The translations under genes were made by a program, and so were the position numbers. 32,000 nucleotides of DNA, taken from Vulcanisaeta distributa DSM 14429. GTDB taxonomy: Archaea; Thermoproteota; Thermoprotei; Thermoproteales; Thermocladiaceae. The stretch lies in the NCBI RefSeq assembly GCF_000148385.1, contig NC_014537.1, forward strand, positions 1,530,001 to 1,562,000. The letters run 5' to 3'. Position 1 is the first letter of the stretch; the number at the start of each line of letters is the position of its first letter. The notes beneath the pieces are model-generated. The model did no database searches and had not been told where the DNA came from. It saw only the letters and a program-made list of their open reading frames with translations. Below are positions 1,376 through 28,406 of the stretch, in pieces.

Positions 1376-1474
1376 TGGTGCGGGGGCCGGGATTTGAACC
1401 CGGGACCTCCCGGTTATGAGCCCTACGCGGGGCTGCTGCCCCAGGGCGCTCTAGCCGGGCTAAGCTACCCCCGC
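1376..1474 (-). tRNA. tRNA with anticodon CAT (elongator Met or Ile2). It has an encoded CCA end and a 21-nt intron inside the anticodon stem (about position 29/30; intron at 1423-1443).
   Basis: The reverse complement reads GCGGGGG TA GCTT AGCCCGGCTA GAGC G CCC[TGGGGCAGCAGCCCCGCGTAG]GG CTCATAA CCGGG AGGTC CCGGG TTCAAAT CCCGG CCCCCGC A CCA. All four arms pair once the bracketed insert is removed. The G1-C72 pair argues against an initiator. A TATA-like ttttaaa lies about 30 nt upstream. Confidence 0.9.
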
Positions 1475-9468: not shown

Positions 9469-10125
9469 TCATGATAAGTACCTATCCAGACTGTTACTGA
9501 GTAACTTCCTCACCGTGGACCAACTCCTCCTAACAATAGGCGGTAAATCACCATGTCTCTTTACCCAATCCCTAAGAAATGCCATGGTCCTTGGATCACT
9601 TGGATAGCCACTACCGAAATCTCCATACTCTCTATGTAATTCCTCAATTATCGAATCCCTAATCACCTTAGCTACTATGCTTGCGGCAGACACCACAGGT
9701 ATTAATTTATCAGCGTTGTTCATAGCCACAACCTCGACATTACCCACAACACCCCTCTTAACCATGTCCCTATATCTCTCGGGTCTTGGATCTGGCGAAT
9801 CAATATACACTACCTGGGGTGATACACTATTCAATGCCCTGTTAATTAACTTAATGGCTATCTCAACCTCAAGTATGTTCAGGGCATTCATATATACGTA
9901 ATTATCAATGACCCTGGGTTCTACGATCTCATAGTCAATGTAGTTTAGTGTTGATTTAAGAATTGAAAATAGACGAGCCCTACCGGCCGGACTTAACTCC
10001 TTAGAATCCCTAATACCCATTGCCTTTAACCTATTCATATCGTTTGTAACGGCTATTGCCATGACCATGGGCCCGATGACAGGTCCTCTACCAGCCTCAT
10101 CAATTCCTCCCACGAGCACTTGCAT
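9469..10125 (-). CDS. rnhB: Ribonuclease HII
   Basis: It has the signature GIDEAGRGPVIGPMV, then DSKELS, and ADKLIPVVSAASIVAKVIRD. The 218-aa length fits. Confidence 0.93.
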   Translation of the reverse strand: MQVLVGGIDEAGRGPVIGPMVMAIAVTNDMNRLKAMGIRDSKELSPAGRARLFSILKSTLNYIDYEIVEPRVIDNYVYMNALNILEVEIAIKLINRALNSVSPQVVYIDSPDPRPERYRDMVKRGVVGNVEVVAMNNADKLIPVVSAASIVAKVIRDSIIEELHREYGDFGSGYPSDPRTMAFLRDWVKRHGDLPPIVRRSWSTVRKLLSNSLDRYLS

Positions 10126-11023
10126 TAAGAGCCTCTCTAATCACCTTCTTAAATTCCTCACATTTAATGGGCTTATTTCCATAGATTGCCGCCTCGTAAT
10201 AATCAATTAACTTATCAATAATGTCATTATTGACCCTGGGATCTCCCGCTAAGTAATTACGAATGTCCCTATGGGTTAATGATGGGTCCCTAATACCAAG
10301 CCTTCTTATGAGCCCTGCAAATAATTCATTAATGCATTCCTTATCGTTATATACCTGATACTTAAGTACTGATGGTGATATCATTAATAATGTAATTAGG
10401 GCTATGGTCGTGATCAATGAGGAATCAATTATTGCATAAACAATTGAACGATTTCCGCGCATCTTCATACTCATAATACCAGTCTTATTGGATGGTGAAT
10501 TACCTAATTGCGTACCATGAATTACCAACGCGCTATTATTTATTGCGGCGTTAATTGAGAATTCTCTCTCCAGTTGGCCTATGTGGTATGTTCGTTGTCC
10601 AATCATCTCATAATCCGAGGGATAGGTGGTAATGTTAATGCCTAATTGGGCAATGGCCTTATTATTGGTAACGCCTAGGCTCACTGATGCGTTTATTGGT
10701 ATTGTCTCGGCAATGTCTATCGTGCCATTGGCATATATAATGCCGTTAATTAGGAGGTAATTACCACCTATTAATCCAATACCTGTGAAGGTTGCGTATT
10801 CCTGGTTCAGTGGTTCCTCTGGTGATATTAATATGACTATGCCGTTGCTTGTGTATGTACCGTTAATTACCGACACACTTATTACCGGCCAATTAATTAC
10901 ATTGTAAAAACCCACATATGTATTCCCAAGTACATTAATTGATGAAAATAGAGCAGGTAATAAGATGAGCATAAGAAATACTGCCTTAAGTACCAATGAT
11001 TTATTAATTGGCATTATTAACAA
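10100..11023 (-). CDS. Membrane protein with an extracytoplasmic N-domain and a DUF4129-like C-terminal cytoplasmic domain. The probable start is the ATG at 11014.
   Basis: It has an N-terminal signal/TM, a second TM (ITTIALITLLMISPSVL), and a tail with the DUF4129-like pattern (SLTHRDIRNYL...LIDYYEAAIYGNKPI). It overlaps rnhB by 26 nt and lies divergent to the MoxR cluster. Confidence 0.6.
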   Translation of the reverse strand: MLIMPINKSLVLKAVFLMLILLPALFSSINVLGNTYVGFYNVINWPVISVSVINGTYTSNGIVILISPEEPLNQEYATFTGIGLIGGNYLLINGIIYANGTIDIAETIPINASVSLGVTNNKAIAQLGINITTYPSDYEMIGQRTYHIGQLEREFSINAAINNSALVIHGTQLGNSPSNKTGIMSMKMRGNRSIVYAIIDSSLITTIALITLLMISPSVLKYQVYNDKECINELFAGLIRRLGIRDPSLTHRDIRNYLAGDPRVNNDIIDKLIDYYEAAIYGNKPIKCEEFKKVIREALNASARGRN

Positions 11024-12317: not shown

Positions 12318-13262
12318 ATGGACACGGTAAATGCCAAGCAGATTGTGGATAAACTATTGAGGGAGGTCTCTAAGTCCGTGATCGGCTATGAACATGAGGT
12401 TAAACTACTCTTCGCATGCCTAATAGCGGGTGGCCATGCATTGATTGAGGGTTACCCAGGTTTGGCTAAAACCACGTTGGTTAAGGCATTCGCGAAGGCC
12501 CTCGGTCTCTCCTTTAGCCGTATACAATTCACACCTGACCTATTGCCTAGTGACATAACGGGCTCCCTCATCTTCAACCCAAAGATTGGGGACTTTGAGG
12601 TTAGGTTTGGCCCAATCTTTGCTAATATAGTCCTTGCTGATGAGGTTAATAGGGCTCCTCCTAAGGTTCAGTCTGCTTTGCTTGAGGCTATGCAGGAGGG
12701 TCAAGTGACAATTGGTGGTAAGTCCTATGAGTTGCCGAAGCCCTTTATGATAATAGCCACGCAGAATCCCATAGAGCTCGAGGGAACATACCCACTACCA
12801 GAGGCACAACTAGACAGATTCATGATAAGAATAAGACTAGGATACCCAAGTGAGGATATTGAGATGAAGATTGCTGAGAATATAGATCTCGGTAATGTGG
12901 GTTCAATTAATACTGTGGTAAATAAGGAGGAGGTTGAGGCGCTTCAGTCTCTTATGCGGTCGGTATATATTGACCAATCAATAATTAGGTATATCGTGAA
13001 TCTGATAAGGGCTACGAGAAACGCCCGCGATGTTAAGTTAGGCGCAAGCCCAAGGGCTGCGCAGGTACTTAGTAAGTTGGTTAGGGCCTGGGCTTTGTTG
13101 GATGGTAGGGACTACGTAATACCCGATGACGTGAAGGTTCTGGCGCCTTACGTCTTAAACCATAGGGTTATAACACTTGGCGCTGATAGTACTGTACTAA
13201 TTAGGCAGTTACTTCAGCAGGTACCGACGCCACTCATGGAGAGGGTGCTTCGTAGGCCATGA
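12318..13262 (+). CDS. MoxR-family AAA+ ATPase
   Basis: It has Walker A GYPGLAKTT, Walker B LADEVNRAPPKVQSALLEAMQE, then ATQNPIELEGTYPLPEAQLDRF and a GASPRA lid. This is the classic MoxR layout in 314 aa. Confidence 0.92.
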   Translation: MDTVNAKQIVDKLLREVSKSVIGYEHEVKLLFACLIAGGHALIEGYPGLAKTTLVKAFAKALGLSFSRIQFTPDLLPSDITGSLIFNPKIGDFEVRFGPIFANIVLADEVNRAPPKVQSALLEAMQEGQVTIGGKSYELPKPFMIIATQNPIELEGTYPLPEAQLDRFMIRIRLGYPSEDIEMKIAENIDLGNVGSINTVVNKEEVEALQSLMRSVYIDQSIIRYIVNLIRATRNARDVKLGASPRAAQVLSKLVRAWALLDGRDYVIPDDVKVLAPYVLNHRVITLGADSTVLIRQLLQQVPTPLMERVLRRP

Positions 13263-14356
13263 TACGCGTAATACCGAGTAATAAGTTATTGATTATATAC
13301 CTCGTTCTCTCCGGCATTATCTACATTGGATTGCTGGCTAATAACCTGTTCGGTACGTACTTCGGGTTAATACTCTTCATAGTGTTTACGTCATACGTAT
13401 TGTCGTGGTACCTATTAGCGATGCTTGCGGCATTGTATTCGCGGCTAATCTTCGAACAAAATAGTATAGAACTTACGGTAGGCTCTTCGACTATCATCAA
13501 TGCAAAGGTTTTATCGAGAATACCAATACGATGGGGAGCAAGGCTTAACTTAATTCATTCGCCCCACGTTCAATCTAACGTATTAAATGTTAAGATTAAT
13601 GGTGAATTCACGGTTAAATTAATGGGTAGGTGGATTGGAAGCGCCAGGGTTATTGGTGGGGTGATGGAATTAGAAGATTCACTGGGGCTTTTATCAATTC
13701 AGAGATTACTTCTTTGCGATTGTGCTGAAATTATTGTAAGGCCAAGGCAGTTAATTAGTGCTACTGATAGGATGGGTGTTGGTGGTTATACAGGGCATGG
13801 CTTGTCAATGGAGGGTAGACTGGGTGATTTTAGGTCGTTATTGATTTACGACTACGAAAGGCCTGCCTCATCAATACACTGGTTAACGAGCGCTAGGGTT
13901 AGTGAGTTAATGATGGTTAATAGGAGTGAGTATGGTTCATGCCCCATATTCATAATTAATGTCTCATCAAGGGTATTAATACCGCAGGATGGTGATAGAC
14001 CCATTGATGAGGCCCTACAGATTATAAGTGATTCATCTAATTACTGCGGTGAGGTTAAGGTAGTACTTATACGTAGGGGTTATGTTGAGGAGAGAGTTGT
14101 AAGTAGGGGCGTTATTCCTTACCTGGAGCGTGAAATAAGAATTAGGGTAATTAAGAGTTTTAGTGAGAGTGATATGTTTGTTGATTTGCCAGATTATTTT
14201 CGTAAGTATTTAGATAAGGACGAATTACTTAACATAGCCTATATCAGGACTTCCATAGATGATGAGCCATTAATTGACGAATTAAGTAAAGTAGTTAATG
14301 CCATAGGTAGTAGGAGTAGAATTGTTTTGCTAAATTTTAAGACAGTCGATGGTTGA
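13259..14356 (+). CDS. DUF58-family protein (the usual MoxR partner)
   Basis: It overlaps moxR by 4 nt (ATGA). It has two N-terminal TM helices, then GRLGDFRSLLIYDYERPASSIHWLTSAR, which matches the DUF58 core (G.g.eF...R.Y..GD....I.W..sAR). Confidence 0.75.
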   Translation: MIRVIPSNKLLIIYLVLSGIIYIGLLANNLFGTYFGLILFIVFTSYVLSWYLLAMLAALYSRLIFEQNSIELTVGSSTIINAKVLSRIPIRWGARLNLIHSPHVQSNVLNVKINGEFTVKLMGRWIGSARVIGGVMELEDSLGLLSIQRLLLCDCAEIIVRPRQLISATDRMGVGGYTGHGLSMEGRLGDFRSLLIYDYERPASSIHWLTSARVSELMMVNRSEYGSCPIFIINVSSRVLIPQDGDRPIDEALQIISDSSNYCGEVKVVLIRRGYVEERVVSRGVIPYLEREIRIRVIKSFSESDMFVDLPDYFRKYLDKDELLNIAYIRTSIDDEPLIDELSKVVNAIGSRSRIVLLNFKTVDG

Positions 14357-14895
14357 TAAGTATGGCGAGATTAAGTGACTATGTTTCATACATGCTGATT
14401 AGTGTCATATGGCTAATACTGGAATTAGTACTAACGCGTTATCCTCAATGCTCTAATACGGCGCTTCTAGGAATAATAATTAATGTCATCTCCATGATAG
14501 TGGTATCATATAAGTACATATACAGTAGGTACCTGTTCATACTTAACATGGCATTATTAACGATCATGGGCTTTCTAGTACCACCAGGCATAATAATGCC
14601 GTATATAATCACACTAATAATAAGTATTGTGTTATACCTATTACTAATTGGTATGCTTGAGCCTTACTCCCTAATTCTATCCCTACTTATAATATATCTA
14701 TCGTATATAATAGAGAAAATGCTCATGAAAGTATCGGCATTTTATGCGCTTGAAACATTAGTTAAGGAGGTTGGTGTTAATGTGAGTTTGTTCATGACCT
14801 TATTTACTTGGTACCTTTCATTATTTATAATCTCAATAATCATAGCATTATTAATAATACTTTTGAGCAAGAAAGTACTAACTCCTAGTTCCTAG
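14353..14895 (+). CDS. Polytopic membrane protein, the last gene of the MoxR cluster. The likely start is the ATG at 14362.
   Basis: A very hydrophobic 180-aa ORF with about 5 TM segments. It overlaps or abuts the DUF58 stop codon. No family was recognised. Confidence 0.55.
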   Translation: MISMARLSDYVSYMLISVIWLILELVLTRYPQCSNTALLGIIINVISMIVVSYKYIYSRYLFILNMALLTIMGFLVPPGIIMPYIITLIISIVLYLLLIGMLEPYSLILSLLIIYLSYIIEKMLMKVSAFYALETLVKEVGVNVSLFMTLFTWYLSLFIISIIIALLIILLSKKVLTPSS

Positions 14896-23287: not shown

Positions 23288-23369
23288 TGCGAATTAACGC
23301 AAGCAAAGAACTTACTTAAAAACCTTATGACCACCTTAACCAGGAATTACACAGTCATGAGGGTTACCG

Positions 23370-23410
23370 CCACACAGCCTCGGCTTGCCGAGTTTGCGTG
23401 TGTTGTGTGG
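23370..23410. other. Extended hairpin with a CUUG-type tetraloop
   Basis: ccacaca (23370-76) pairs with tgtgtgg (23404-10). The inner stem ctcgg/ccgag (23379-83 with 23388-92) closes the loop cttg. Confidence 0.4.
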
Positions 23411-23513
23411 TTTATGGCTGTTACGTTCGTGGGTTGTGAATAATACGTTATGACTAATCGCCGCCATGCGATGCGTTTCTCCGTGAAAGGCTCAACACCG
23501 ATTTCGGGAAGGC

Positions 23514-23521
23514 TATATAAA
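23514..23521 (+). promoter_or_regulatory. Strong TATA-like element (tatataaa) preceded by a purine-rich, BRE-like gggaagg. No ORF lies downstream.
   Basis: Read directly from the sequence. About 25-30 nt downstream begins a GC-rich structured stretch (ggggttgac...). This would fit an ncRNA promoter or a long-leader promoter. Confidence 0.35.
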
Positions 23522-23561
23522 CTACTTAGTTATTTTAGGGGTTGACTGATTTAGGCGATGA

Positions 23562-23615
23562 GCCCCCGAGGTATAGCGCCCGGGATTTGCCTGGGCGAAT
23601 TCCTCGGCTTTGGGT
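23562..23615. other. 54-nt GC-rich three-segment hairpin
   Basis: gccc/gggt (23562-65 with 23612-15), ccgagg/cctcgg (23566-71 with 23602-07) and cgcccggg/cctgggcg (23577-84 with 23590-97) surround the loop atttg. The G-T pairs are consistent with plus-strand RNA. Confidence 0.45.
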
Positions 23616-23737
23616 GATCCACCGCGACCGCTCCCGTGGGTAGTGTAGGGACTCGAGTGATGAAAAGCTCATTGAATGCATATGCAGTAAGTACAATGGC
23701 TATGATAACGATGCCGATGATAATAACAACTCAACTG

Positions 23738-23784
23738 CTTAATTACTTAGCTGTTAAGACTCCTAATCACTTAGCCGTTAAGAT
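23738..23784. repeat. Tandem direct repeat, two 23-nt units with a 24-nt period
   Basis: cttaattacttagctgttaagac (23738-60) and cctaatcacttagccgttaagat (23762-84) are identical at 19 of 23 positions. Confidence 0.8.
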
Positions 23785-23789
23785 GCTTA

Positions 23790-23955
23790 TTCCCCAAGCC
23801 CTTCCCTCGGTCCCACTCCCTCCCTCTCTTCCCGAAGCCGAGGCCTCCCTGGTCAGGGGGGCTCTCGGCACGTGAGGCCGGGCCGTGAGGAAGACGAGCC
23901 CCGAAACGGCAACCAGTAACGGCGGGAAGTTAGGTTTGAGGGAAGGGCTTGGGAA
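23790..23955. other. 166-nt GC-rich nested four-helix element, a candidate structured ncRNA of unknown class
   Basis: Four helices nest in order. The outer helix pairs cccaagcccttccctc (23793-808) with gagggaagggcttggg (23938-53), 16 perfect bp. Then cttcccg (23828-34) pairs with cgggaag (23923-29), ctggt (23849-53) with accag (23912-16), and ggggctc (23858-64) with gagcccc (23896-902). An apical cacg/cgtg stem closes the structure. The 60-nt line starting at 23821 is 43/60 G+C by hand count. Confidence 0.5.
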
Positions 23956-24041
23956 TTGAGTGCCTAAATGCAATTATGTACAGCAGTCCCTAGGCTGAAG
24001 AGGATAAAGTGTGATTAATTCATGTGGAGATTAAGAATTTG

Positions 24042-24059
24042 TTTCACGAAAACGTGAAA
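24042..24059. promoter_or_regulatory. Perfect palindrome tttcacg-aaaa-cgtgaaa, either an operator-like site or a small hairpin
   Basis: A 7-bp inverted repeat with a 4-nt spacer, read directly. It lies in the AT-rich stretch about 180 nt upstream of the ORF at 24241, next to the A/T-rich aaaaagttattaatg. Confidence 0.35.
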
Positions 24060-24099
24060 AAGTTATTAATGAATTCCCCAATACCCTAGCAAAATGGCA

Positions 24100-24211
24100 A
24101 GCAATTCCTGGGGAATTGCTGGATAAGTTGCTTTGTCAAGCCCCGTGGGCTCCTCACGGGGCGCCAACCCATTTTCAGTTCTGGGTGGCACGGCTCCGTG
24201 GGGATCGCCCA
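24100..24211. other. Cluster of four consecutive GC-rich hairpins immediately upstream of the 24241 ORF
   Basis: The stems are agcaattcc/ggaattgct (24100-20), gccccgtg/cacggggc (24140-62, 8 bp with a 7-nt loop), gccaaccca/tgggtggc (24163-89, one bulge), and tggg/ccca (24199-211). Confidence 0.45.
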
Positions 24212-24240
24212 TGGGGCATGAGGCATCAAGGTGAGGGAGT

Positions 24241-25665
24241 ATGGAGGGTGGAGAGAAGCGAATAAACGAGCCAAATAAAAACAAAGGGGAGGGAGAGGGA
24301 CCAAGGAAGGGCAGGGAAATACGCAAGCCACCAAATGAGGGCATCGACGACAACGCACCAAGTGAGGAGGAGGTTAGGGCGGCTATTTTGGAGCTTATTA
24401 AGAGACTGAGGAGGCATGAGGATGTGATTAGGAGTGGTAAGATGTTTAGTGAGATCAAGGCTGAGTTGGGGAGGTTGAGGAATGAGGTTGCGAAGTATGG
24501 CATTGATGGTTTTGAGAGGGTATTTGATGAAATGGAGAAATACGTCATGAGGGTAGAGGAGAAGTTCAAGAGGTACCATGCTAAGGAAATTCAAGGTCTC
24601 GTTGAAGAAATCGAACGGGGACAGATAAAACCAAAGGGAAGATCAATTAGATCTAGGTATATAACCCTGAGTTTTTCAACACCAAGCTATCAAGCAACAT
24701 ATCAAATATTGCTCAAGAAAATTGGGAGCATAACTGTCAAGGCACCCAAAGTTTTGCCGTACGATGTAATTACGCCACTGCAGTGGGGACTACTATTAAG
24801 CGACGCCACGGTGAGGATCTATTACCCAGCTATGGAGACTGTGAGCATGTTTCAGATCATGCTATTTATGTTAGCGTTTCCAGGTAGAATACGAATAGAT
24901 GCTACAAAGCTTGATGTTAATAAAGACGGCGTAAAAATAGTATGGCGTGTAGAATCAAAGGACTGGGACCCACCATCGTTGCCTGAGTGTGAGGATGAGG
25001 ATGAGTGTCAGCAAATTAATGAGGAGGATGCGTATATCGCATTATTTGCAGGTTTGATGGGAGATGGCTCATTTGGTACAATAAGGAGAAGGAATCACGT
25101 TTATCCAAGGATTCGTTTGACGACGACAGAAAAATATAGATGGGAACCGATACTAAAGAGTATAAAGATAAAGTATTATGAAGAACCTTATAAAAATGGC
25201 ATAATAAATATTACGTTTTGTTGTTCATATGCTGTTGAACTAATGCAAAGAATTAAGGGTATCTTTGTAGGAAAAGCACCAATATTGTTAAGATTGCTAG
25301 ATATATTAGTTAATGAAACAAAGATAGAAAGAGTAAGACACATTATGAACATGGAGATTAGGAAGTTGGGAGAGTTTAGTGTGGAATTGCTTGGCTATTT
25401 ATTTCATGTGAATATAAGTGGCAGTTGGAGTATTATGTTCATGAAAAGGATGAGTGATGTAGAGAGAGCGAATGCAATAGCAACAGAGGTCGCGCAATAT
25501 TACGGGCTTAGTAATGATGATATTAAGGTTTATCCTGAGTCCCATGCCATAATAATAAAGCCATCAGGCATACTAAAAATAATAATGAGGGATGAGAAGG
25601 TAAAGGAGGAAACCATAAGAGTACTCTGCAAAAATATCAAGACGAGAAGAGAAAAAGTAAAATAA
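24241..25665 (+). CDS. Free-standing protein with two LAGLIDADG-like motifs and a charged coiled-coil N-terminal extension. It may be a homing-endonuclease-derived protein. The start codon is uncertain.
   Basis: The second motif, DAYIALFAGLMGDGSFGTIRRR, fits the LAGLIDADG helix plus a beta-strand. An upstream degenerate copy (PLQWGLLLSDATVRIYY) lies about 90 aa earlier, as in double-motif monomeric enzymes. The N-terminal ~130 aa are Lys/Glu/Arg-rich. The first ~30 codons overlap a repeated non-coding motif. The 3' two-thirds is AT-rich (18/60 G+C in the line starting at 25141). Confidence 0.55.
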   Translation: MEGGEKRINEPNKNKGEGEGPRKGREIRKPPNEGIDDNAPSEEEVRAAILELIKRLRRHEDVIRSGKMFSEIKAELGRLRNEVAKYGIDGFERVFDEMEKYVMRVEEKFKRYHAKEIQGLVEEIERGQIKPKGRSIRSRYITLSFSTPSYQATYQILLKKIGSITVKAPKVLPYDVITPLQWGLLLSDATVRIYYPAMETVSMFQIMLFMLAFPGRIRIDATKLDVNKDGVKIVWRVESKDWDPPSLPECEDEDECQQINEEDAYIALFAGLMGDGSFGTIRRRNHVYPRIRLTTTEKYRWEPILKSIKIKYYEEPYKNGIINITFCCSYAVELMQRIKGIFVGKAPILLRLLDILVNETKIERVRHIMNMEIRKLGEFSVELLGYLFHVNISGSWSIMFMKRMSDVERANAIATEVAQYYGLSNDDIKVYPESHAIIIKPSGILKIIMRDEKVKEETIRVLCKNIKTRREKVK

Positions 25666-25711
25666 TTAGCATTTTGAAGAAAGTCATACCCACAAAGGGG
25701 GCGGCCGCGGT

Positions 25712-26311
25712 ATGTCTGAGTCGCCAGCTACTCAGGAGAACTGGATAGGCGTCAATGGTAGGTCGGTTAGGTATCTGGTATATGGTGATGGTAAACCCAT
25801 GGTCATGGTTCATGGATATAACTTCAACGCTAATGACTGGATTAACTGCTGCGGTAATGACTTCCCTGGGTTTAAAATATATGCGTTGGATATGCCCTAT
25901 GGACCTAGGTCGAGGAGTGATCACTTCATGCCTAAGGATGATAATGATTATGCCAATCACCTACATGCCATAATTAAGGCGTTGGGCATTGAAAACCCGA
26001 TACTTATTGGCGCGAGTTTGGGTGGCGAGACCGTACTTAGGTACCTAGCGCTTAACTACCCAGCGACTGCGGGTATAGTTATTGGTCCCGTGAGGGTACC
26101 CAGTATTGACCTGTCAAGGATAAGGGTTCCCGTAATGGGTATTTGGGGGAGTAATGATAAGGTCTCGGGTAGGGAGAACATGGAGGCCATGAGGAGGGCC
26201 GGCTTTAGGGTTGAGGTGATCAATGGAGCTGGTCACCCTGCTTACCTCGATAAGCCCAGGGAATTCGTGAGGTTAGTGCTTGATTTTTTAAGGTCCATTA
26301 ATGTCATTTAG
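25712..26311 (+). CDS. Alpha/beta-fold hydrolase
   Basis: It has HGYNF (oxyanion region), the nucleophile elbow GASLGG (GxSxG), and a C-terminal GAGHPAYLDKP (catalytic His region). At 199 aa it is compact. Confidence 0.75.
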   Translation: MSESPATQENWIGVNGRSVRYLVYGDGKPMVMVHGYNFNANDWINCCGNDFPGFKIYALDMPYGPRSRSDHFMPKDDNDYANHLHAIIKALGIENPILIGASLGGETVLRYLALNYPATAGIVIGPVRVPSIDLSRIRVPVMGIWGSNDKVSGRENMEAMRRAGFRVEVINGAGHPAYLDKPREFVRLVLDFLRSINVI

Positions 26312-26405: not shown

Positions 26406-26924
26406 GTGGATAGGGTCGACCTGGCCTACGTAGTTGGTGTTGTGCTCGGTAAGGAGGATGTTGACGGAATTAGGGTTGCGTATACCACATACACGAGCAC
26501 ACTGGGTAAGTGGGTTAGGGACCCTGAGGGTGTTGTTCAATACCTAGTGAATATTGGCAAGGCTAAGGTTGTTAAGAGTGGCCAGGGTAGGAGTGTGATA
26601 TTGACGGATAGGGAGATGATGAGTAGGGTGAATAACCTATTAATGCCTAGGGAGGATGTTGACCCACTAACGCTGGTTATTGAAGGCATTAGGAAGCTGG
26701 CGAATCCCTTATCTGGCTATGCGGATATTGGTGATATTATTAAGTACATAGAGGGTAGACTTAATGTACCCACTAAGGAGGCTGAGGAATTCCTGATTAA
26801 GGTAATTAAGTTCCATAGGGGTAGGTTCGTATTTGCACACGGTGGTTCCCGCAGGTTAAAAATTGGTTCTTCATACTATGGCTTGATAAAGGTGGTGGGT
26901 GATGCAGAGACTCTTGGTTCCTAA
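26406..26924 (+). CDS. Hypothetical protein, possibly with a C-terminal winged-helix-like region. It is the upstream partner of the AAA+ gene.
   Basis: A 172-aa ORF with a GTG start that overlaps the next gene by about 23-26 nt. No family motif was recognised with confidence. Confidence 0.5.
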   Translation: MDRVDLAYVVGVVLGKEDVDGIRVAYTTYTSTLGKWVRDPEGVVQYLVNIGKAKVVKSGQGRSVILTDREMMSRVNNLLMPREDVDPLTLVIEGIRKLANPLSGYADIGDIIKYIEGRLNVPTKEAEEFLIKVIKFHRGRFVFAHGGSRRLKIGSSYYGLIKVVGDAETLGS

Positions 26925-27726
26925 TAGGGGCTCAGTTATAAGATTGCTTGGTCCTTCGTGGAGAGCGGCTAGGGAGAAGCTATTGAGTATGATTCGTGAG
27001 GATTACCAATTAATTGCAATAATTGGCAGGGCAGGCGCTGGGAAGACAACCTTACTCCTCAGTCTTGAGGGTATGGGTGATGGCGTCTTCATGTATACTG
27101 ACATGACTGAGGTTAGGGATAGGGACTTATCGGCGATTGTATCCACGGTATTCGCAGACAACACCCACGTGGTTAGGGATGTACAGGAGAGATTGAAGAA
27201 GACAGGTGTCAAGGGGTTGCTCAAGGCCTTCGCTAAGGCAAGCCCTGATGAGGTTGTTGAAAGCGCCAGGCTTAAGCCAATGGAGACCCTGAAATTACTT
27301 AATGATGCGATTGAGCTATTAGGTATGTCACCACTGGTGATTGGAGTTGATGAGGGCCTGCTTAGTCAGGATGATCCGAGGGCAATGGACTTCATAAATT
27401 CAATACACGCATTTAGGAATAATATGCAGGCAATGCCATCAACTAAAATAGTAATAACACTACTCCCTGACGTGGTTAACCTAATATCGAAGGTCGATAC
27501 ACCACTATTTGACATACTGAGACTAGGCGCAATAACACTACCAGACTACGTAACAAGGGAGGACCTAAAGGAGGTTATTCAGGAATACGGACTGAGCGAG
27601 GTAGATCTAAGCAAGATAGAGGCGCTGGGCCCATTAACCATGAGACAGCTCATATGCTTAATGAACACAAAAATGGATGTAATAAAGTGCGGAATAGACA
27701 CAGCAGGAGAAATATCAATAGAATGA
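26899..27726 (+). CDS. AAA+/P-loop ATPase whose motif order resembles the Orc1/Cdc6 ATPase module, without a C-terminal winged helix. The likely start is the ATG at 26902.
   Basis: It has Walker A GRAGAGKTT, Walker B VIGVDEGLL, a sensor-1-like KIVITLLPD, and a lid segment LRLGAITLPDYVTREDLKEVIQEYG that resembles the initiator-clade pattern (i.F.pY...eL..IL). At 275 aa it is long enough only for the base and lid. Confidence 0.6.
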   Translation: MMQRLLVPNRGSVIRLLGPSWRAAREKLLSMIREDYQLIAIIGRAGAGKTTLLLSLEGMGDGVFMYTDMTEVRDRDLSAIVSTVFADNTHVVRDVQERLKKTGVKGLLKAFAKASPDEVVESARLKPMETLKLLNDAIELLGMSPLVIGVDEGLLSQDDPRAMDFINSIHAFRNNMQAMPSTKIVITLLPDVVNLISKVDTPLFDILRLGAITLPDYVTREDLKEVIQEYGLSEVDLSKIEALGPLTMRQLICLMNTKMDVIKCGIDTAGEISIE

Positions 27727-27780: not shown

Positions 27781-27879
27781 TGGAGCCCCGGCCGGGATTC
27801 GAACCCGGGACCTCCCGCTTACAAGGCTTGCACGGGGCTGCCGCCCCAGGGCGCTCCGACCAGGCTGAGCTACCGGGGC
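27781..27879 (-). tRNA. tRNA-Thr (anticodon TGT) with an encoded CCA end and a 21-nt intron inside the anticodon stem (about position 29/30; intron at 27828-27848)
   Basis: The reverse complement reads GCCCCGG TA GCTC AGCCTGGTCG GAGC G CCC[TGGGGCGGCAGCCCCGTGCAA]GC CTTGTAA GCGGG AGGTC CCGGG TTCGAAT CCCGG CCGGGGC T CCA. A TATA-like cttaaaatt lies about 25 nt upstream. Confidence 0.9.
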
Positions 27880-27920: not shown

Positions 27921-28406
27921 TTATTGCATGGCTTTTTCCGCGAGTTCCCTAACCTTACTTATCAATGTCCTTATATCCCTAGATGCAGATTCATCATCTG
28001 GGTATGGACTTAGTATACTCTGTTTATCTGGCCCATTGTATTGGTACTCATATAACCATAATGCCATGTTTGTATATACATCAATATCACCACCTACTAC
28101 CTGAGCCACAGGCTTCAGTACTGTTGTTGGCATAACAGCCACAATCCAATAAACCTTCTCAACCCTTACCCTAAAACCCCCTAACCTCTTTATACCTGGA
28201 AACAACTTCCTTAATTCACTTATTTTATCCACCGCGTATGCCGCTACCAATGCCTTCCAGGCCTGGAATGCCTTGCCCGCTGCGTTTCTTATGAATCCCT
28301 GATTTAGAAAGGACTCCGCCAGCTCAGTCTCATACATTGCCTCCCTTAACCTAACCTCCCTATACTTATTGAGGTCGAACCAAGGCTTGGGTAATTGCTC
28401 CACCAT
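27921..28406 (-). CDS. PaREP1-family (HEPN-like) protein
   Basis: AESFLNQGFIRNAAGKAFQAWKALVAAYAV matches my recollection of the PaREP1 core (KG..rNAAGKAfqAwKAl..a). This is a family expanded in Thermoproteales. The ORF is 161 aa. Confidence 0.6.
   Translation of the reverse strand: MVEQLPKPWFDLNKYREVRLREAMYETELAESFLNQGFIRNAAGKAFQAWKALVAAYAVDKISELRKLFPGIKRLGGFRVRVEKVYWIVAVMPTTVLKPVAQVVGGDIDVYTNMALWLYEYQYNGPDKQSILSPYPDDESASRDIRTLISKVRELAEKAMQ

What the first reader, a model, noticed from the sequence alone, without database searches (positions are those of the whole stretch)
24241..25665. Free-standing LAGLIDADG-like ORF with a coiled-coil N-terminal extension and foreign (AT-rich) composition
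Known archaeal LAGLIDADG enzymes sit inside rRNA or tRNA introns or inside inteins. This 474-aa ORF lies between genes instead. It carries one good motif (ALFAGLMGDGSFG) and one degenerate motif (WGLLLSDATV), spaced as in monomeric double-motif enzymes. These follow about 130 residues of Lys/Glu/Arg-rich predicted coiled coil, which is not a feature of homing endonucleases that I know. The body of the gene is visibly AT-richer (18/60 G+C at 25141-25200) than its 5' end (29/60 at 24241-24300) and than the neighbouring genes. That pattern suggests horizontal acquisition. It could be a mobile free-standing homing endonuclease. It could also be a domesticated DNA-binding or maturase-like protein that works with the structured RNA island immediately upstream.
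Basis: partly seen in the sequence, partly recalled or inferred. Interest (0 to 1): 0.7.

Follow-up and report, generated by a model that had tools for sequence, protein, structure and literature searches.

The report
Strain-specific free-standing LAGLIDADG nuclease gene
This gene encodes a previously undescribed kind of LAGLIDADG ("homing") endonuclease-like protein with extra domains, and it sits on a 2.4-kb piece of DNA that this Vulcanisaeta strain has and five close relatives lack, so it is most likely a selfish mobile nuclease gene and not a housekeeping protein.

Summary
ORF 24241-25665 (+) is real and is identical to a Vulcanisaeta distributa "hypothetical protein". It has the two motifs at the stated places, a charged helical N-terminus and an AT-poor-to-AT-rich gradient. 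The query gets no Pfam, NCBIfam, PHROGs or PADLOC hit. An exhaustive HMMER search found 58 other cluster representatives. Every member that carries a source name is from Vulcanisaeta, and each genome holds several paralogs.

With that alignment AlphaFold gives pLDDT 90.5. Foldseek returns LAGLIDADG enzymes first (I-Tsp061I, bI3 maturase, E-DreI, I-AniI, WhiA). Both motif aspartates are essentially invariant (D188 50/51, D275 54/54), so catalysis is probably retained.

Five syntenic Vulcanisaeta genomes have only a short spacer (about 100-150 nt) where this strain has about 2.38 kb (23354 to about 25737). A paralog elsewhere sits precisely inside a PAPS-reductase gene that is intact in other strains. 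Family members are 4-12 GC points below their flanks.

Best reading: a free-standing homing-type endonuclease gene of a new family. This copy has lost its conserved C-terminal tail through a 1-nt deletion in an A-run. The maturase idea is not supported, because the upstream structured RNA is not a family feature.

The parts
23354..25737 (+). Strain-specific inserted segment of about 2.38 kb (RNA island plus LAGLIDADG gene). It replaces about 75 nt of the ZnRib-to-hydrolase spacer seen in five related genomes.
   Evidence: Synteny by tblastn and blastn against L008-L012. Left-flank homology ends at about 23353 (23351-23359 in the closest genomes). Homology restarts at GAGAACTGG, about 25738. 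No terminal inverted repeats or target-site duplication were found.
23354..24240 (+). GC-rich (0.51) non-coding 'RNA island' acquired together with the gene. It holds a long closed hairpin domain at 23780-23965 and a TATA-like box CTATATAAAC at 23513-23522.
   Evidence: RNA fold z = -6.6 on the + strand and -4.7 on the - strand. The sub-domain gives z = -4.35. There is no Rfam match at E<=10, no family-HMM remnant, and the region is absent upstream of homologs.
24230..24234 (+). GGTGA Shine-Dalgarno-like motif 6 nt before the ATG. It suggests translation from a leadered or longer transcript.
   Evidence: Read directly from the sequence. The functional meaning is an inference.
24241..25665 (+). 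LAGLIDADG-family ORF, 474 aa as it now reads.
   Evidence: 100% identical to a V. distributa hypothetical protein; family; model pLDDT 90.5; fold hits.
24364..24615 (+). N-terminal three-helix region (residues 42-125). It is conserved in about 38 of the 59 family sequences.
   Evidence: AlphaFold secondary structure and pLDDT 93-98. Family coverage. PDB profile hits here are only generic helical proteins.
24643..24744 (+). Four-strand beta segment (residues 135-168) preceding the first LAGLIDADG helix.
   Evidence: It is conserved in 47 family sequences.
24760..24957 (+). LAGLIDADG domain 1 (residues 174-239), with the degenerate motif G183..S187-D188-A189. The family consensus is G(L/F)xxTD(G/E), followed by P.M.T.Q.WQ.
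   Evidence: G183 50/51, D188 50/51, Q205 54/54. hhalign puts this motif in register with motif 2 (P = 0.004).
25021..25275 (+). LAGLIDADG domain 2 (residues 261-345), with the canonical motif ALFAGLMGD275G276 and a conserved Lys/Trp (K298, W301) after beta2.
   Evidence: D275 and G276 54/54. The family profile hits I-Tsp061I and E-DreI here. Pfam LAGLIDADG_3, LAGLIDADG_2 and WhiA hits occur in some members.
25279..25629 (+). C-terminal alpha/beta domain (residues 347-463, ending at the conserved VLC). [quoted passage not shown]
   Evidence: Some members' C-terminal parts give weak hits to the tail of LAGLIDADG_2 and to PaRep2b. There is no PDB sequence match.
25630..25634 (+). A5 run where a 1-nt deletion shifts the frame. 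A6 would restore the reading VLCKKYQDEKRK...
   Evidence: together with the sequence. The same sequence appears in the deposited genome and in two read-set assemblies.
25635..25748 (+). Ancestral C-terminal tail, now out of frame (-1): YQDEKRKSKIISILKKVIPTKGAAAV..., running to the TAG at 25746-25748. It overlaps the start codon (25712) of the downstream hydrolase gene.
   Evidence: The family HMM matches positions 450-479 (16.3 bits, E 1.3e-4 in the six-frame search of the window; 16.1 bits for the stretch scanned alone). Tails of P0021, P0025, P0031 and P0008 carry the same PTKGAAA motif.

Best explanation
The ORF encodes a member of a previously unannotated, apparently Vulcanisaeta-centred family of free-standing monomeric (two-motif) LAGLIDADG endonuclease-like proteins. 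The core nuclease is elaborated by an N-terminal three-helix region, a beta-rich pre-domain and a C-terminal alpha/beta domain. The proposed mechanism has four steps.

1. The two LAGLIDADG helices pack to form a single active centre, with D188 and D275 binding the catalytic metals.
2. The beta-sheet saddle, helped by the extra domains, recognises a long DNA site.
3. The enzyme cleaves gene-less alleles at or near its own insertion point.
4. Recombinational repair from a gene-bearing chromosome copies the whole cassette, with flanking donor DNA, into the cut site. This is 'intronless homing'.

What is shown: the fold, conservation of both acidic residues, presence/absence polymorphism at this locus, a second precise polymorphic insertion inside a gene, AT-skewed composition, and multiple divergent paralogs in unrelated contexts. 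What is inferred: DNA cleavage, the target site, and the homing route. This particular copy has a 1-nt deletion that removes the conserved 37-codon tail. It may therefore be an element that is already fixed and beginning to decay.
For: Fold. [quoted passage not shown] The top 50 Foldseek PDB hits listed are almost all LAGLIDADG proteins, led by I-Tsp061I at E 6.5e-5; the top-ranked ones have probability 1.00. The viral structure library is likewise led by LAGLIDADG and intein-type homing endonucleases.

Sequence. The family profile hits I-Tsp061I (E 0.003) and E-DreI (E 0.004) at motif 2. Four members hit Pfam LAGLIDADG_3 (best 2.9e-6), three hit LAGLIDADG_2 and two hit the WhiA LAGLIDADG domain.

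Active site. D188 is conserved in 50/51 sequences, D275 in 54/54, G276 in 54/54 and Q205 in 54/54. Lys is present in 34/55 at the post-beta2 position, which aligns with the I-CreI TQK segment. The criteria come from PMC3384342.

Mobility. Five Vulcanisaeta genomes keep the full gene order but lack 23354 to about 25737. Paralog P0036 splits a PAPS-reductase gene exactly at RWC|CK. No codon is lost, there is no duplication, and the junction carries one synonymous change. The DSM 14429 allele is intact, and nearly all of the 120 PAPS-reductase homologs listed are of full length. The paralogs have no conserved neighbour.

Composition and selection. Seven of eight other members examined are 4-12 GC points below their flanks, six of them by 8-13 points. 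dN/dS is 0.17 between near-identical copies. A relative in L024 is broken and has GDG changed to GGG, whereas its L023 ortholog is intact. This is the decay expected of selfish nuclease genes.
Against: No biochemical activity is known for any member. The query itself does not reach any Pfam LAGLIDADG threshold. Domain 1 lacks the conserved lysine seen in canonical enzymes. The extra domains are unprecedented for homing endonucleases, so another activity is possible. The target site is unknown. The right junction at this locus is a replacement of about 75 nt, not a clean insertion. This copy is frameshifted near its 3' end. At least one paralog lineage (Vdis_1223) is kept at >=90% identity in V. 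souniana, which could also mean host benefit. DNA exchange between Vulcanisaeta cells, which homing requires, has not been demonstrated as far as I know.
Confidence: 0.55

Rival explanations
1. The family consists of domesticated LAGLIDADG proteins. The host would use them as a site-specific nuclease (HO-like) or as a DNA-binding regulator or oligomeric scaffold (WhiA-like). The N-terminal helices would mediate oligomerisation or partner binding, and the dispersed paralogs would be ordinary lineage-specific gene expansion.
For: The multi-domain architecture is conserved across 59 clusters, including the non-nuclease N- and C-terminal domains and a conserved C-terminal PTKGAAA tail. Purifying selection is indicated (dN/dS 0.17). 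The Vdis_1223 lineage is shared at >=90% identity with V. souniana. WhiA and the bI3 maturase are among the structural hits.
Against: WhiA-type domestication is defined by loss of the acidic and basic active-site residues (PMC3384342), whereas here both aspartates are nearly invariant. No helix-turn-helix or other regulator domain was detected. The gene is absent from five syntenic relatives. One paralog disrupts a conserved gene. The AT-skewed composition and the decayed copies fit dispensable selfish genes better.
Confidence: 0.2
2. The protein is the mobility enzyme of a transposon-like repeat element of Thermoproteales related to Pyrobaculum paREP2b ('putative transposons'). On this reading the cassette moves by a mechanism other than homing.
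For: The C-terminal domain of member P0015 matches Pfam PaRep2b positions 165-247 of 512 at 20.2 bits, with a gathering score of 20.4. paREP2 genes mark strain-specific regions in Pyrobaculum and were called putative transposons (PMC3558965). Family cassettes sit at many unrelated sites. The L007 cassette has an imperfect terminal complementarity of about 11 nt (p about 0.02).
Against: The similarity to PaRep2b is sub-threshold, partial and seen in one or two members only. No terminal inverted repeats or target-site duplications exist at the window insertion or in the PAPS-reductase insertion. LAGLIDADG enzymes are not known to act as transposases (my own knowledge). The copies are divergent paralogs (20-37% identity), not near-identical repeats.
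Confidence: 0.1
3. The protein is a maturase-like or RNA-binding protein that works with the structured RNA immediately upstream. The 2.4-kb segment would then be an intron-like RNA element with its own ORF.
For: The RNA island and the ORF lie on the same strand and were acquired together. The island is strongly structured (z -6.6). An SD-like GGTGA before the ATG suggests a long leader. The bI3 maturase is the second-best structural hit. A paralog lies inside a protein-coding gene in such a way that exact removal would restore the frame.
Against: No Rfam intron or other family matches. The window insertion is intergenic, so there is nothing to splice. Upstream regions of the closest homologs and of the PAPS-reductase cassette are unrelated, AT-rich and not structured. 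The intragenic cassette shows no canonical bulge-helix-bulge motif and no group I or group II termini. Maturases typically lose the catalytic acids, which are retained here.
Confidence: 0.07

Closest known systems
Archaeal rRNA-intron LAGLIDADG homing endonucleases (I-Tsp061I, I-DmoI, I-Vdi141I)
   Same: All are monomeric two-motif LAGLIDADG proteins. I-Tsp061I is the best structural and profile match. Acidic residues sit at the end of both motif helices. The enzymes come from the same order of hosts (Thermoproteales).
   Different: This protein is not in an intron or intein. At 474 aa it is more than twice the size of those enzymes (about 200 aa). It carries an N-terminal helical region, a beta pre-domain, a C-terminal alpha/beta domain and a conserved tail. 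Motif 1 is degenerate (TD(G/E)). It falls below the Pfam thresholds. It forms a multi-paralog family scattered among chromosomal genes.
Free-standing homing endonuclease genes ('intronless homing', e.g. phage T4 seg/mob genes; yeast HO as a free-standing LAGLIDADG)
   Same: This is a stand-alone nuclease gene between host genes or inside one. It shows presence/absence polymorphism between close strains, precise junctions without target duplications, and divergent flanking sequence next to the insert, which is compatible with co-conversion.
   Different: The T4 examples are GIY-YIG or HNH enzymes in phage genomes. HO is intein-derived and has zinc fingers. The present case is a chromosomal family in a hyperthermophilic crenarchaeon, and its mobility route is unproven.
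WhiA/DUF199 and LAGLIDADG maturases (domesticated LAGLIDADG proteins)
   Same: They share the double LAGLIDADG core fused to or accompanied by additional domains, and they appear among the structural hits.
   Different: [quoted passage not shown] Maturases reside in group I introns. Here both aspartates are nearly invariant, no HTH was found, and no conserved RNA partner exists.
Pyrobaculum PaRep2b (Pfam PF07775), an uncharacterised repeat-gene family
   Same: Both are Thermoproteales-specific, multi-copy and associated with strain-variable regions. There is a borderline profile match to the C-terminal domain of one member.
   Different: The match is sub-threshold and partial. The query itself does not match. 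Whether PaRep2b contains a LAGLIDADG core was not testable here.

Membership tests
LAGLIDADG homing endonuclease (monomeric, two-motif) | [quoted passage not shown] | tested here: met
   AlphaFold with the alignment gives pLDDT 90.5. The elements are H174-185/E189-192/E195-200/H203-212/E215-226/E231-239 and H261-275/E276-283/E286-295/H298-307/E313-316/E322-327/H329-345. Foldseek PDB and viral hits are led by LAGLIDADG enzymes. Helix packing itself could not be inspected because no coordinates are returned.
LAGLIDADG homing endonuclease (monomeric, two-motif) | An acidic residue at the C-terminal end of each LAGLIDADG helix (the metal ligands) | tested here: met
   D188 and D275 are present. 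In the family they are conserved in 50/51 and 54/54 sequences.
LAGLIDADG homing endonuclease (monomeric, two-motif) | A conserved basic residue (Lys) near each active site, after beta2 | tested here: inconclusive
   In domain 2, K298 is present in the query and Lys occurs in 34/55 members at the adjacent column, which aligns with the I-CreI TQK segment. Domain 1 has no conserved Lys and instead has an invariant Q205.
LAGLIDADG homing endonuclease (monomeric, two-motif) | Sequence-profile membership (Pfam LAGLIDADG_1/_2/_3 gathering score) | tested here: not met
   The query has 0 Pfam families at E<=10. Some family members give hits; every individually tabulated hit is below the gathering score, and bit scores were not returned for the best ones (LAGLIDADG_3 best E 2.9e-6).
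LAGLIDADG homing endonuclease (monomeric, two-motif) | Site-specific double-strand DNA cleavage of a long target | not testable with these tools
   This needs biochemistry on empty-site DNA.
LAGLIDADG homing endonuclease (monomeric, two-motif) | Mobility: sporadic presence at a site that is uninterrupted in relatives | tested here: met
   The gene is absent from 5 syntenic genomes. A paralog is precisely inserted in a PAPS-reductase gene that is intact elsewhere.
Intron- or intein-encoded archaeal LAGLIDADG enzyme | The gene lies within an rRNA/tRNA intron or in frame within an intein | tested here: not met
   No rRNA or tRNA is interrupted. The ORF is bounded by stops and is not fused to a host ORF.
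WhiA/DUF199-type domesticated LAGLIDADG regulator | [quoted passage not shown] | tested here: not met
   The acidic residues are retained. No HTH family or PDB match was found in the C-terminal domain.
LAGLIDADG maturase | The protein is encoded in, and acts on, a cognate structured intron RNA that is conserved with the protein | tested here: not met
   The upstream RNA island is not found with homologs. There is no Rfam intron match.
PaRep2b (PF07775) | Profile score at or above the gathering threshold over the family domain | tested here: not met
   The query has no hit. The best member, P0015, scores 20.2 bits against a gathering score of 20.4 and covers only profile positions 165-247 of 512.
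Archaeal bulge-helix-bulge intron (considered for the intragenic paralog cassette in L007) | Two 3-nt bulges separated by a 4-bp helix at the two junctions | tested here: not met
   Folding the junctions gives an exon-exon helix, a 5x5 internal loop and an intron-intron helix, with no canonical BHB. Terminal pairing is only marginal (p about 0.02).

The most novel reading that the evidence does not exclude
The family may define a new class of archaeal mobile cassette of about 2.1-2.4 kb, built around an enlarged LAGLIDADG nuclease with a third pseudo-LAGLIDADG domain. These cassettes would home into intergenic and intragenic chromosomal sites. At least the intragenic copy (in PAPS reductase, where exact excision restores the frame) might be removed at the RNA level. 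That would make it a new kind of intervening sequence in an archaeal protein-coding gene. The window copy would additionally have carried in an unknown structured RNA of about 0.9 kb as cargo.
Probability: 0.1. Interest if true: 0.85.

Novelty: new variant of a known kind. Interest (0 to 1): 0.6.

Why it matters
Characterised archaeal LAGLIDADG enzymes are intron- or intein-borne. A chromosomal, free-standing, multi-paralog family with three added domains would show another way in which these nucleases persist and diversify in hyperthermophiles. It would also give direct evidence for homing-like gene flow between Vulcanisaeta strains. The family offers thermostable, probably long-site nucleases with new accessory domains as engineering scaffolds. 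It gives a functional lead for hypothetical proteins scattered through Vulcanisaeta genomes, and possibly for the enigmatic paREP2 genes of Pyrobaculum. The locus is a natural before/after pair, with empty sites in five genomes, which makes the target site experimentally testable.

Tried and rejected
- **Direct family scans of the query.** Pfam, NCBIfam, PDB phmmer, PHROGs and PADLOC gave nothing meaningful.
- **Single-sequence AlphaFold.** The model was useless, with pLDDT 40.
- **Word-indexed homolog search.** It returned only the query itself for the single sequence and 2 proteins for the alignment.
- **Genome-collection scans.** A scan with the protein found nothing, and alignment A1 was too divergent for pattern scanning. 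A viral-contig scan found no relative.
- **Ends of the window insertion.** A search for terminal inverted repeats or target duplications found none.
- **Apparent right junction.** A 15-nt match (25651-25665) to the empty site looked like the right junction. It is only borderline against shuffles, and it was superseded by the frameshifted tail and by the alignment showing that homology restarts at about 25738.
- **Family remnants in the RNA island.** I looked for decayed family-gene sequence there and found none.
- **The PAPS-reductase cassette as an intron.** It shows no canonical BHB motif and no group I or group II termini.
- **Internal homology.** Profile comparison of domain 1, domain 2 and the C-terminal domain aligned only the two motifs, weakly (P = 0.004), and the C-terminal domain was not significant.
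- **P0157 as a second split PAPS-reductase allele.** It is only a frameshifted draft gene with no insertion.
Full report
**1. The observation**

The ORF at 24241-25665 (+) exists. It is 474 codons long and begins at the first ATG after an in-frame stop. The two motifs are at residues 182 (WGLLLSDATV) and 267 (ALFAGLMGDGSFG). The gene has GC 0.400 against 0.438 for the window. GC falls from 0.53 at the 5' end to 0.29-0.38 in the last 525 nt, and that last stretch is in the lowest 0.8% of windows of that size in the 32 kb. The protein is 100% identical to a 'hypothetical protein' of Vulcanisaeta distributa, on a 2.37-Mb contig.

**2. What the protein is**

Direct scans of the query found nothing: Pfam gave 0 hits at E<=10, NCBIfam gave noise, and PDB gave coiled-coil noise. 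An exhaustive HMMER scan of 1.8 billion cluster representatives found 58 other clusters with E<1e-3. Most are 380-525 aa and cover residues from about 40-90 to about 470. Every member that carries a source name is a 'hypothetical protein' from Vulcanisaeta: V. distributa, V. souniana, JCM 14467, JCM 16161 and MAGs. DSM 14429 itself has at least two more paralogs, Vdis_1223 and Vdis_2482.

The alignment shows two family motifs:
- G(L/F)xxTD(G/E), followed by P.M.T.Q.WQ..LW.LLYPG.
- Ax(I/V)LGDG, followed by I.L....K...W..IL..L.

The positions equivalent to the catalytic acids are nearly invariant: D188 in 50/51 sequences, D275 in 54/54, G276 in 54/54 and Q205 in 54/54.

The family profile hits the archaeal intron enzyme I-Tsp061I (E 0.003) and E-DreI (E 0.004) at motif 2. 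Some members hit Pfam LAGLIDADG_3 (best 2.9e-6), LAGLIDADG_2 and the WhiA LAGLIDADG domain.

With the alignment, AlphaFold improves from pLDDT 40 to 90.5, with pTM 0.84. The model contains these elements:
- A disordered segment at residues 1-34.
- Three long helices at 42-125.
- Four strands at 135-168.
- A further alpha/beta domain with a long terminal helix (347-473).

The Foldseek hits listed against the PDB are almost all LAGLIDADG proteins: I-Tsp061I at 6.5e-5, then the bI3 maturase, E-DreI, I-AniI, WhiA, I-OnuI-type enzymes and I-CreI. The viral structure library is likewise led by LAGLIDADG and intein-type homing endonucleases. The fold assignment stands.

The N-terminal helical region is a conserved family feature (38 sequences). 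It has no specific known homolog. The C-terminal domain has no PDB sequence match. In a few members it gives weak hits to the end of LAGLIDADG_2 and to Pfam PaRep2b. The best PaRep2b hit is P0015, at 20.2 bits against a gathering score of 20.4, over profile positions 165-247 of 512.

**3. The locus is a strain-specific insertion**

I used the neighbouring M19 dipeptidase gene to fetch syntenic loci and recovered five Vulcanisaeta genomes: JCM 16159, UBA163, V. distributa JCM 11216, V. distributa JCM 11217 and AZ3. All of them keep the following gene order:
- TyrRS
- M19 dipeptidase
- FBPase
- C5-methyltransferase
- RPB9-type zinc-ribbon gene
- alpha/beta hydrolase
- 172-aa ORF
- ATPase
- PaREP1 (no match found in AZ3)
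- MFS transporter
- enolase-superfamily gene

In these genomes the zinc-ribbon and hydrolase genes are separated by only a short spacer of about 100-150 nt, and nothing matches the LAGLIDADG gene.

At the DNA level, left-flank homology ends at window 23351-23359 in the closest genomes. Unambiguous homology restarts at GAGAACTGG, about 25738, inside the hydrolase gene. About 2.38 kb in this strain therefore replaces about 75 nt of spacer. There are no terminal inverted repeats or target duplications.

The hydrolase here has a different N-terminus and start codon: MSESPATQENW, against VSENW in the relatives. The segment has two parts. The first is a GC-rich (0.51), strongly structured non-coding region at 23354-24240, with fold z = -6.6 on the + strand and -4.7 on the - strand. 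The second is the ORF.

**4. A frameshift at the 3' end**

I searched the family HMM against the six-frame translation of the window. Besides the ORF, segment 25596-25745 in the -1 frame matches the family's conserved C-terminal tail...YQDEKRKSKIISILKKVIPTKGAAAV, HMM positions 450-479. The same tail occurs in P0021, P0025, P0031 and P0008.

The switch occurs at the A5 run at 25630-25634. An A6 run would read VLCKKYQDEKRK..., as in the closest homolog (VLCRKYEDYKDD...). As sequenced, the gene has lost 37 conserved codons and ends 13 codons after the shift. The same sequence is present in the genome record and in two independent read-set assemblies. A homopolymer sequencing error is not fully excluded.

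The ancestral frame would have run to a TAG at 25746-25748, across the hydrolase start codon at 25712. This places the element's right end at the hydrolase gene. It also explains why an apparent 15-nt 'junction' match at 25651-25665 is probably coincidental.

**5. Evidence from other family members**

The paralogs sit in unrelated contexts:
- Between glycolate-oxidase-like genes (L003).
- After a PfkB kinase gene (L016).
- After a superoxide dismutase gene (L017).
- Before ornithine-cyclodeaminase-like genes (L018).

No neighbour is conserved.

Most telling is member P0036 in L007 (GCA_001316125.1), which lies inside a PAPS-reductase family gene. The upstream ORF covers Pfam PF01507 positions 2-80 and the downstream ORF covers positions 83-174. 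The DSM 14429 allele is intact at 611 aa, and nearly all of the 120 PAPS-reductase homologs listed are of full length. The DNA comparison gives ...CGCTGGTGC TGC AAGGTG... for the intact allele against ...TGGTGCT[2138 nt]GTAAGGTG... for L007. This is a precise insertion with no lost or duplicated base and a synonymous TGC-to-TGT change at the junction.

The junctions do not form a canonical bulge-helix-bulge motif and lack group I or group II termini. A terminal complementarity of about 11 nt is only marginally better than shuffles (p about 0.02).

Seven of eight other members examined are AT-richer than their flanks: 0.31-0.36 against 0.43-0.47 for six of them, and 0.335 against 0.374 for L023. 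The eighth (L022) is not. Two near-identical copies give dN/dS of 0.17. A shorter 333-aa relative in metagenome contig L023 is broken into two ORFs in L024, with GDG changed to GGG. No relatives were found on viral contigs, and there were no PHROGs or PADLOC matches.

**6. Interpretation**

The anatomy and population pattern fit a free-standing homing-type endonuclease gene:
- A double LAGLIDADG core with both metal-ligand aspartates under strong conservation.
- Insertion that is polymorphic between close strains.
- Precise junctions without transposon hallmarks.
- Foreign composition.
- Many divergent paralogs, each at its own site.
- Decayed copies.

The divergent about 75-nt stretch adjoining the right end at this locus is compatible with co-conversion of donor flank during recombinational repair. 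That point is an inference.

The criteria that separate active enzymes from domesticated ones are retention of the acidic residues and of the neighbouring basic residues (PMC3384342). The acids are met in both domains. The lysine is met in domain 2 only.

The function of the added domains is unknown. I infer extra DNA contacts or oligomerisation. This copy may already be impaired by the tail truncation.

The maturase/RNA-partner idea is not supported. The RNA island is real and co-acquired. However, the 5' regions of the closest homolog and of the PAPS-reductase cassette are unrelated, AT-rich and not unusually structured (z -0.98 and +1.35), and no Rfam family matches. What the island is remains unexplained.

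A link to Pyrobaculum paREP2b, described as 'putative transposons' marking strain-specific regions (PMC3558965), is a lead only.

**7. Novelty**

No paper in the searched library links Vulcanisaeta LAGLIDADG proteins to anything but rRNA introns. The fold and the principle of free-standing homing genes are known. The family, its three accessory domains, its chromosomal multi-copy lifestyle in a crenarchaeon, and the intragenic precise insertion are new. I rate it a new variant of a known kind, with interest about 0.6.

Noticed in passing
window 23354-24240 (+): This is a GC-rich (0.51), strongly structured non-coding region that was acquired together with the gene. It folds with z = -6.6 on the + strand. 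It contains a closed domain at 23780-23965 with a 16-bp outer stem (z = -4.35) and a TATA-like CTATATAAAC at 23513-23522. It has no Rfam match and no homolog in any fetched locus. Its identity is unknown.
   Followed up: partly
window 25630-25748: A 1-nt deletion in an A-run truncates the ORF. The conserved family tail (…IPTKGAAAV) survives in the -1 frame and overlaps the start codon of the next gene. The conserved PTKGAAA C-terminal motif of the family has no known function.
   Followed up: yes
window 25712-25745: The downstream alpha/beta-hydrolase gene uses a start codon and first 8 or so codons (MSESPATQ) that lie inside the inserted element. Relatives start with VSENW. The insertion therefore replaced the gene's promoter and start.
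   Followed up: partly
L007 7441-9578 (GCA_001316125.1): Family member P0036 sits on a 2138-nt cassette inserted exactly between the two Cys codons of the RWCC motif of a PAPS-reductase family gene. Exact excision would restore the frame. There is no BHB motif and there are no group I or group II termini. The ends share an imperfect complementarity of about 11 nt.
   Followed up: yes
L023 7617-8618 and L024 7549-8549: A shorter (333 aa) relative from another hot-spring metagenome lacks the C-terminal domain. In the second contig the same gene is split in two and its GDG motif reads GGG, so that copy has decayed.
   Followed up: partly
alignment A3 (P0009, P0004, P0013 and others), N-termini: One subfamily has a conserved N-terminal NxFCxGxxxGxxYxC motif, possibly a small Cys-containing knuckle, which the window protein lacks. 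In this subfamily motif 1 reads TDE with an invariant D-E.
   Followed up: no
window 27781-27879 (-) and 1376-1474 (-): Two tRNA genes are longer than usual (99 nt) and probably contain introns. ARAGORN could not assign the anticodon of the first. A PaREP1-family gene (27921-28406, -) lies next to it.
   Followed up: no
window 26406-27726 (+): An overlapping pair of genes, a 172-aa protein without a Pfam match and a 275-aa P-loop/STAND-like ATPase, is conserved in all five syntenic genomes. Its function is unknown.
   Followed up: no
window 13259-14895 and 10100-11023: Other genes in the window are also clearly AT-rich: 14353-14895 has GC 0.328, 10100-11023 has 0.376 and 13259-14356 has 0.393. 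Low GC alone is therefore not unique to the LAGLIDADG gene.
   Followed up: no
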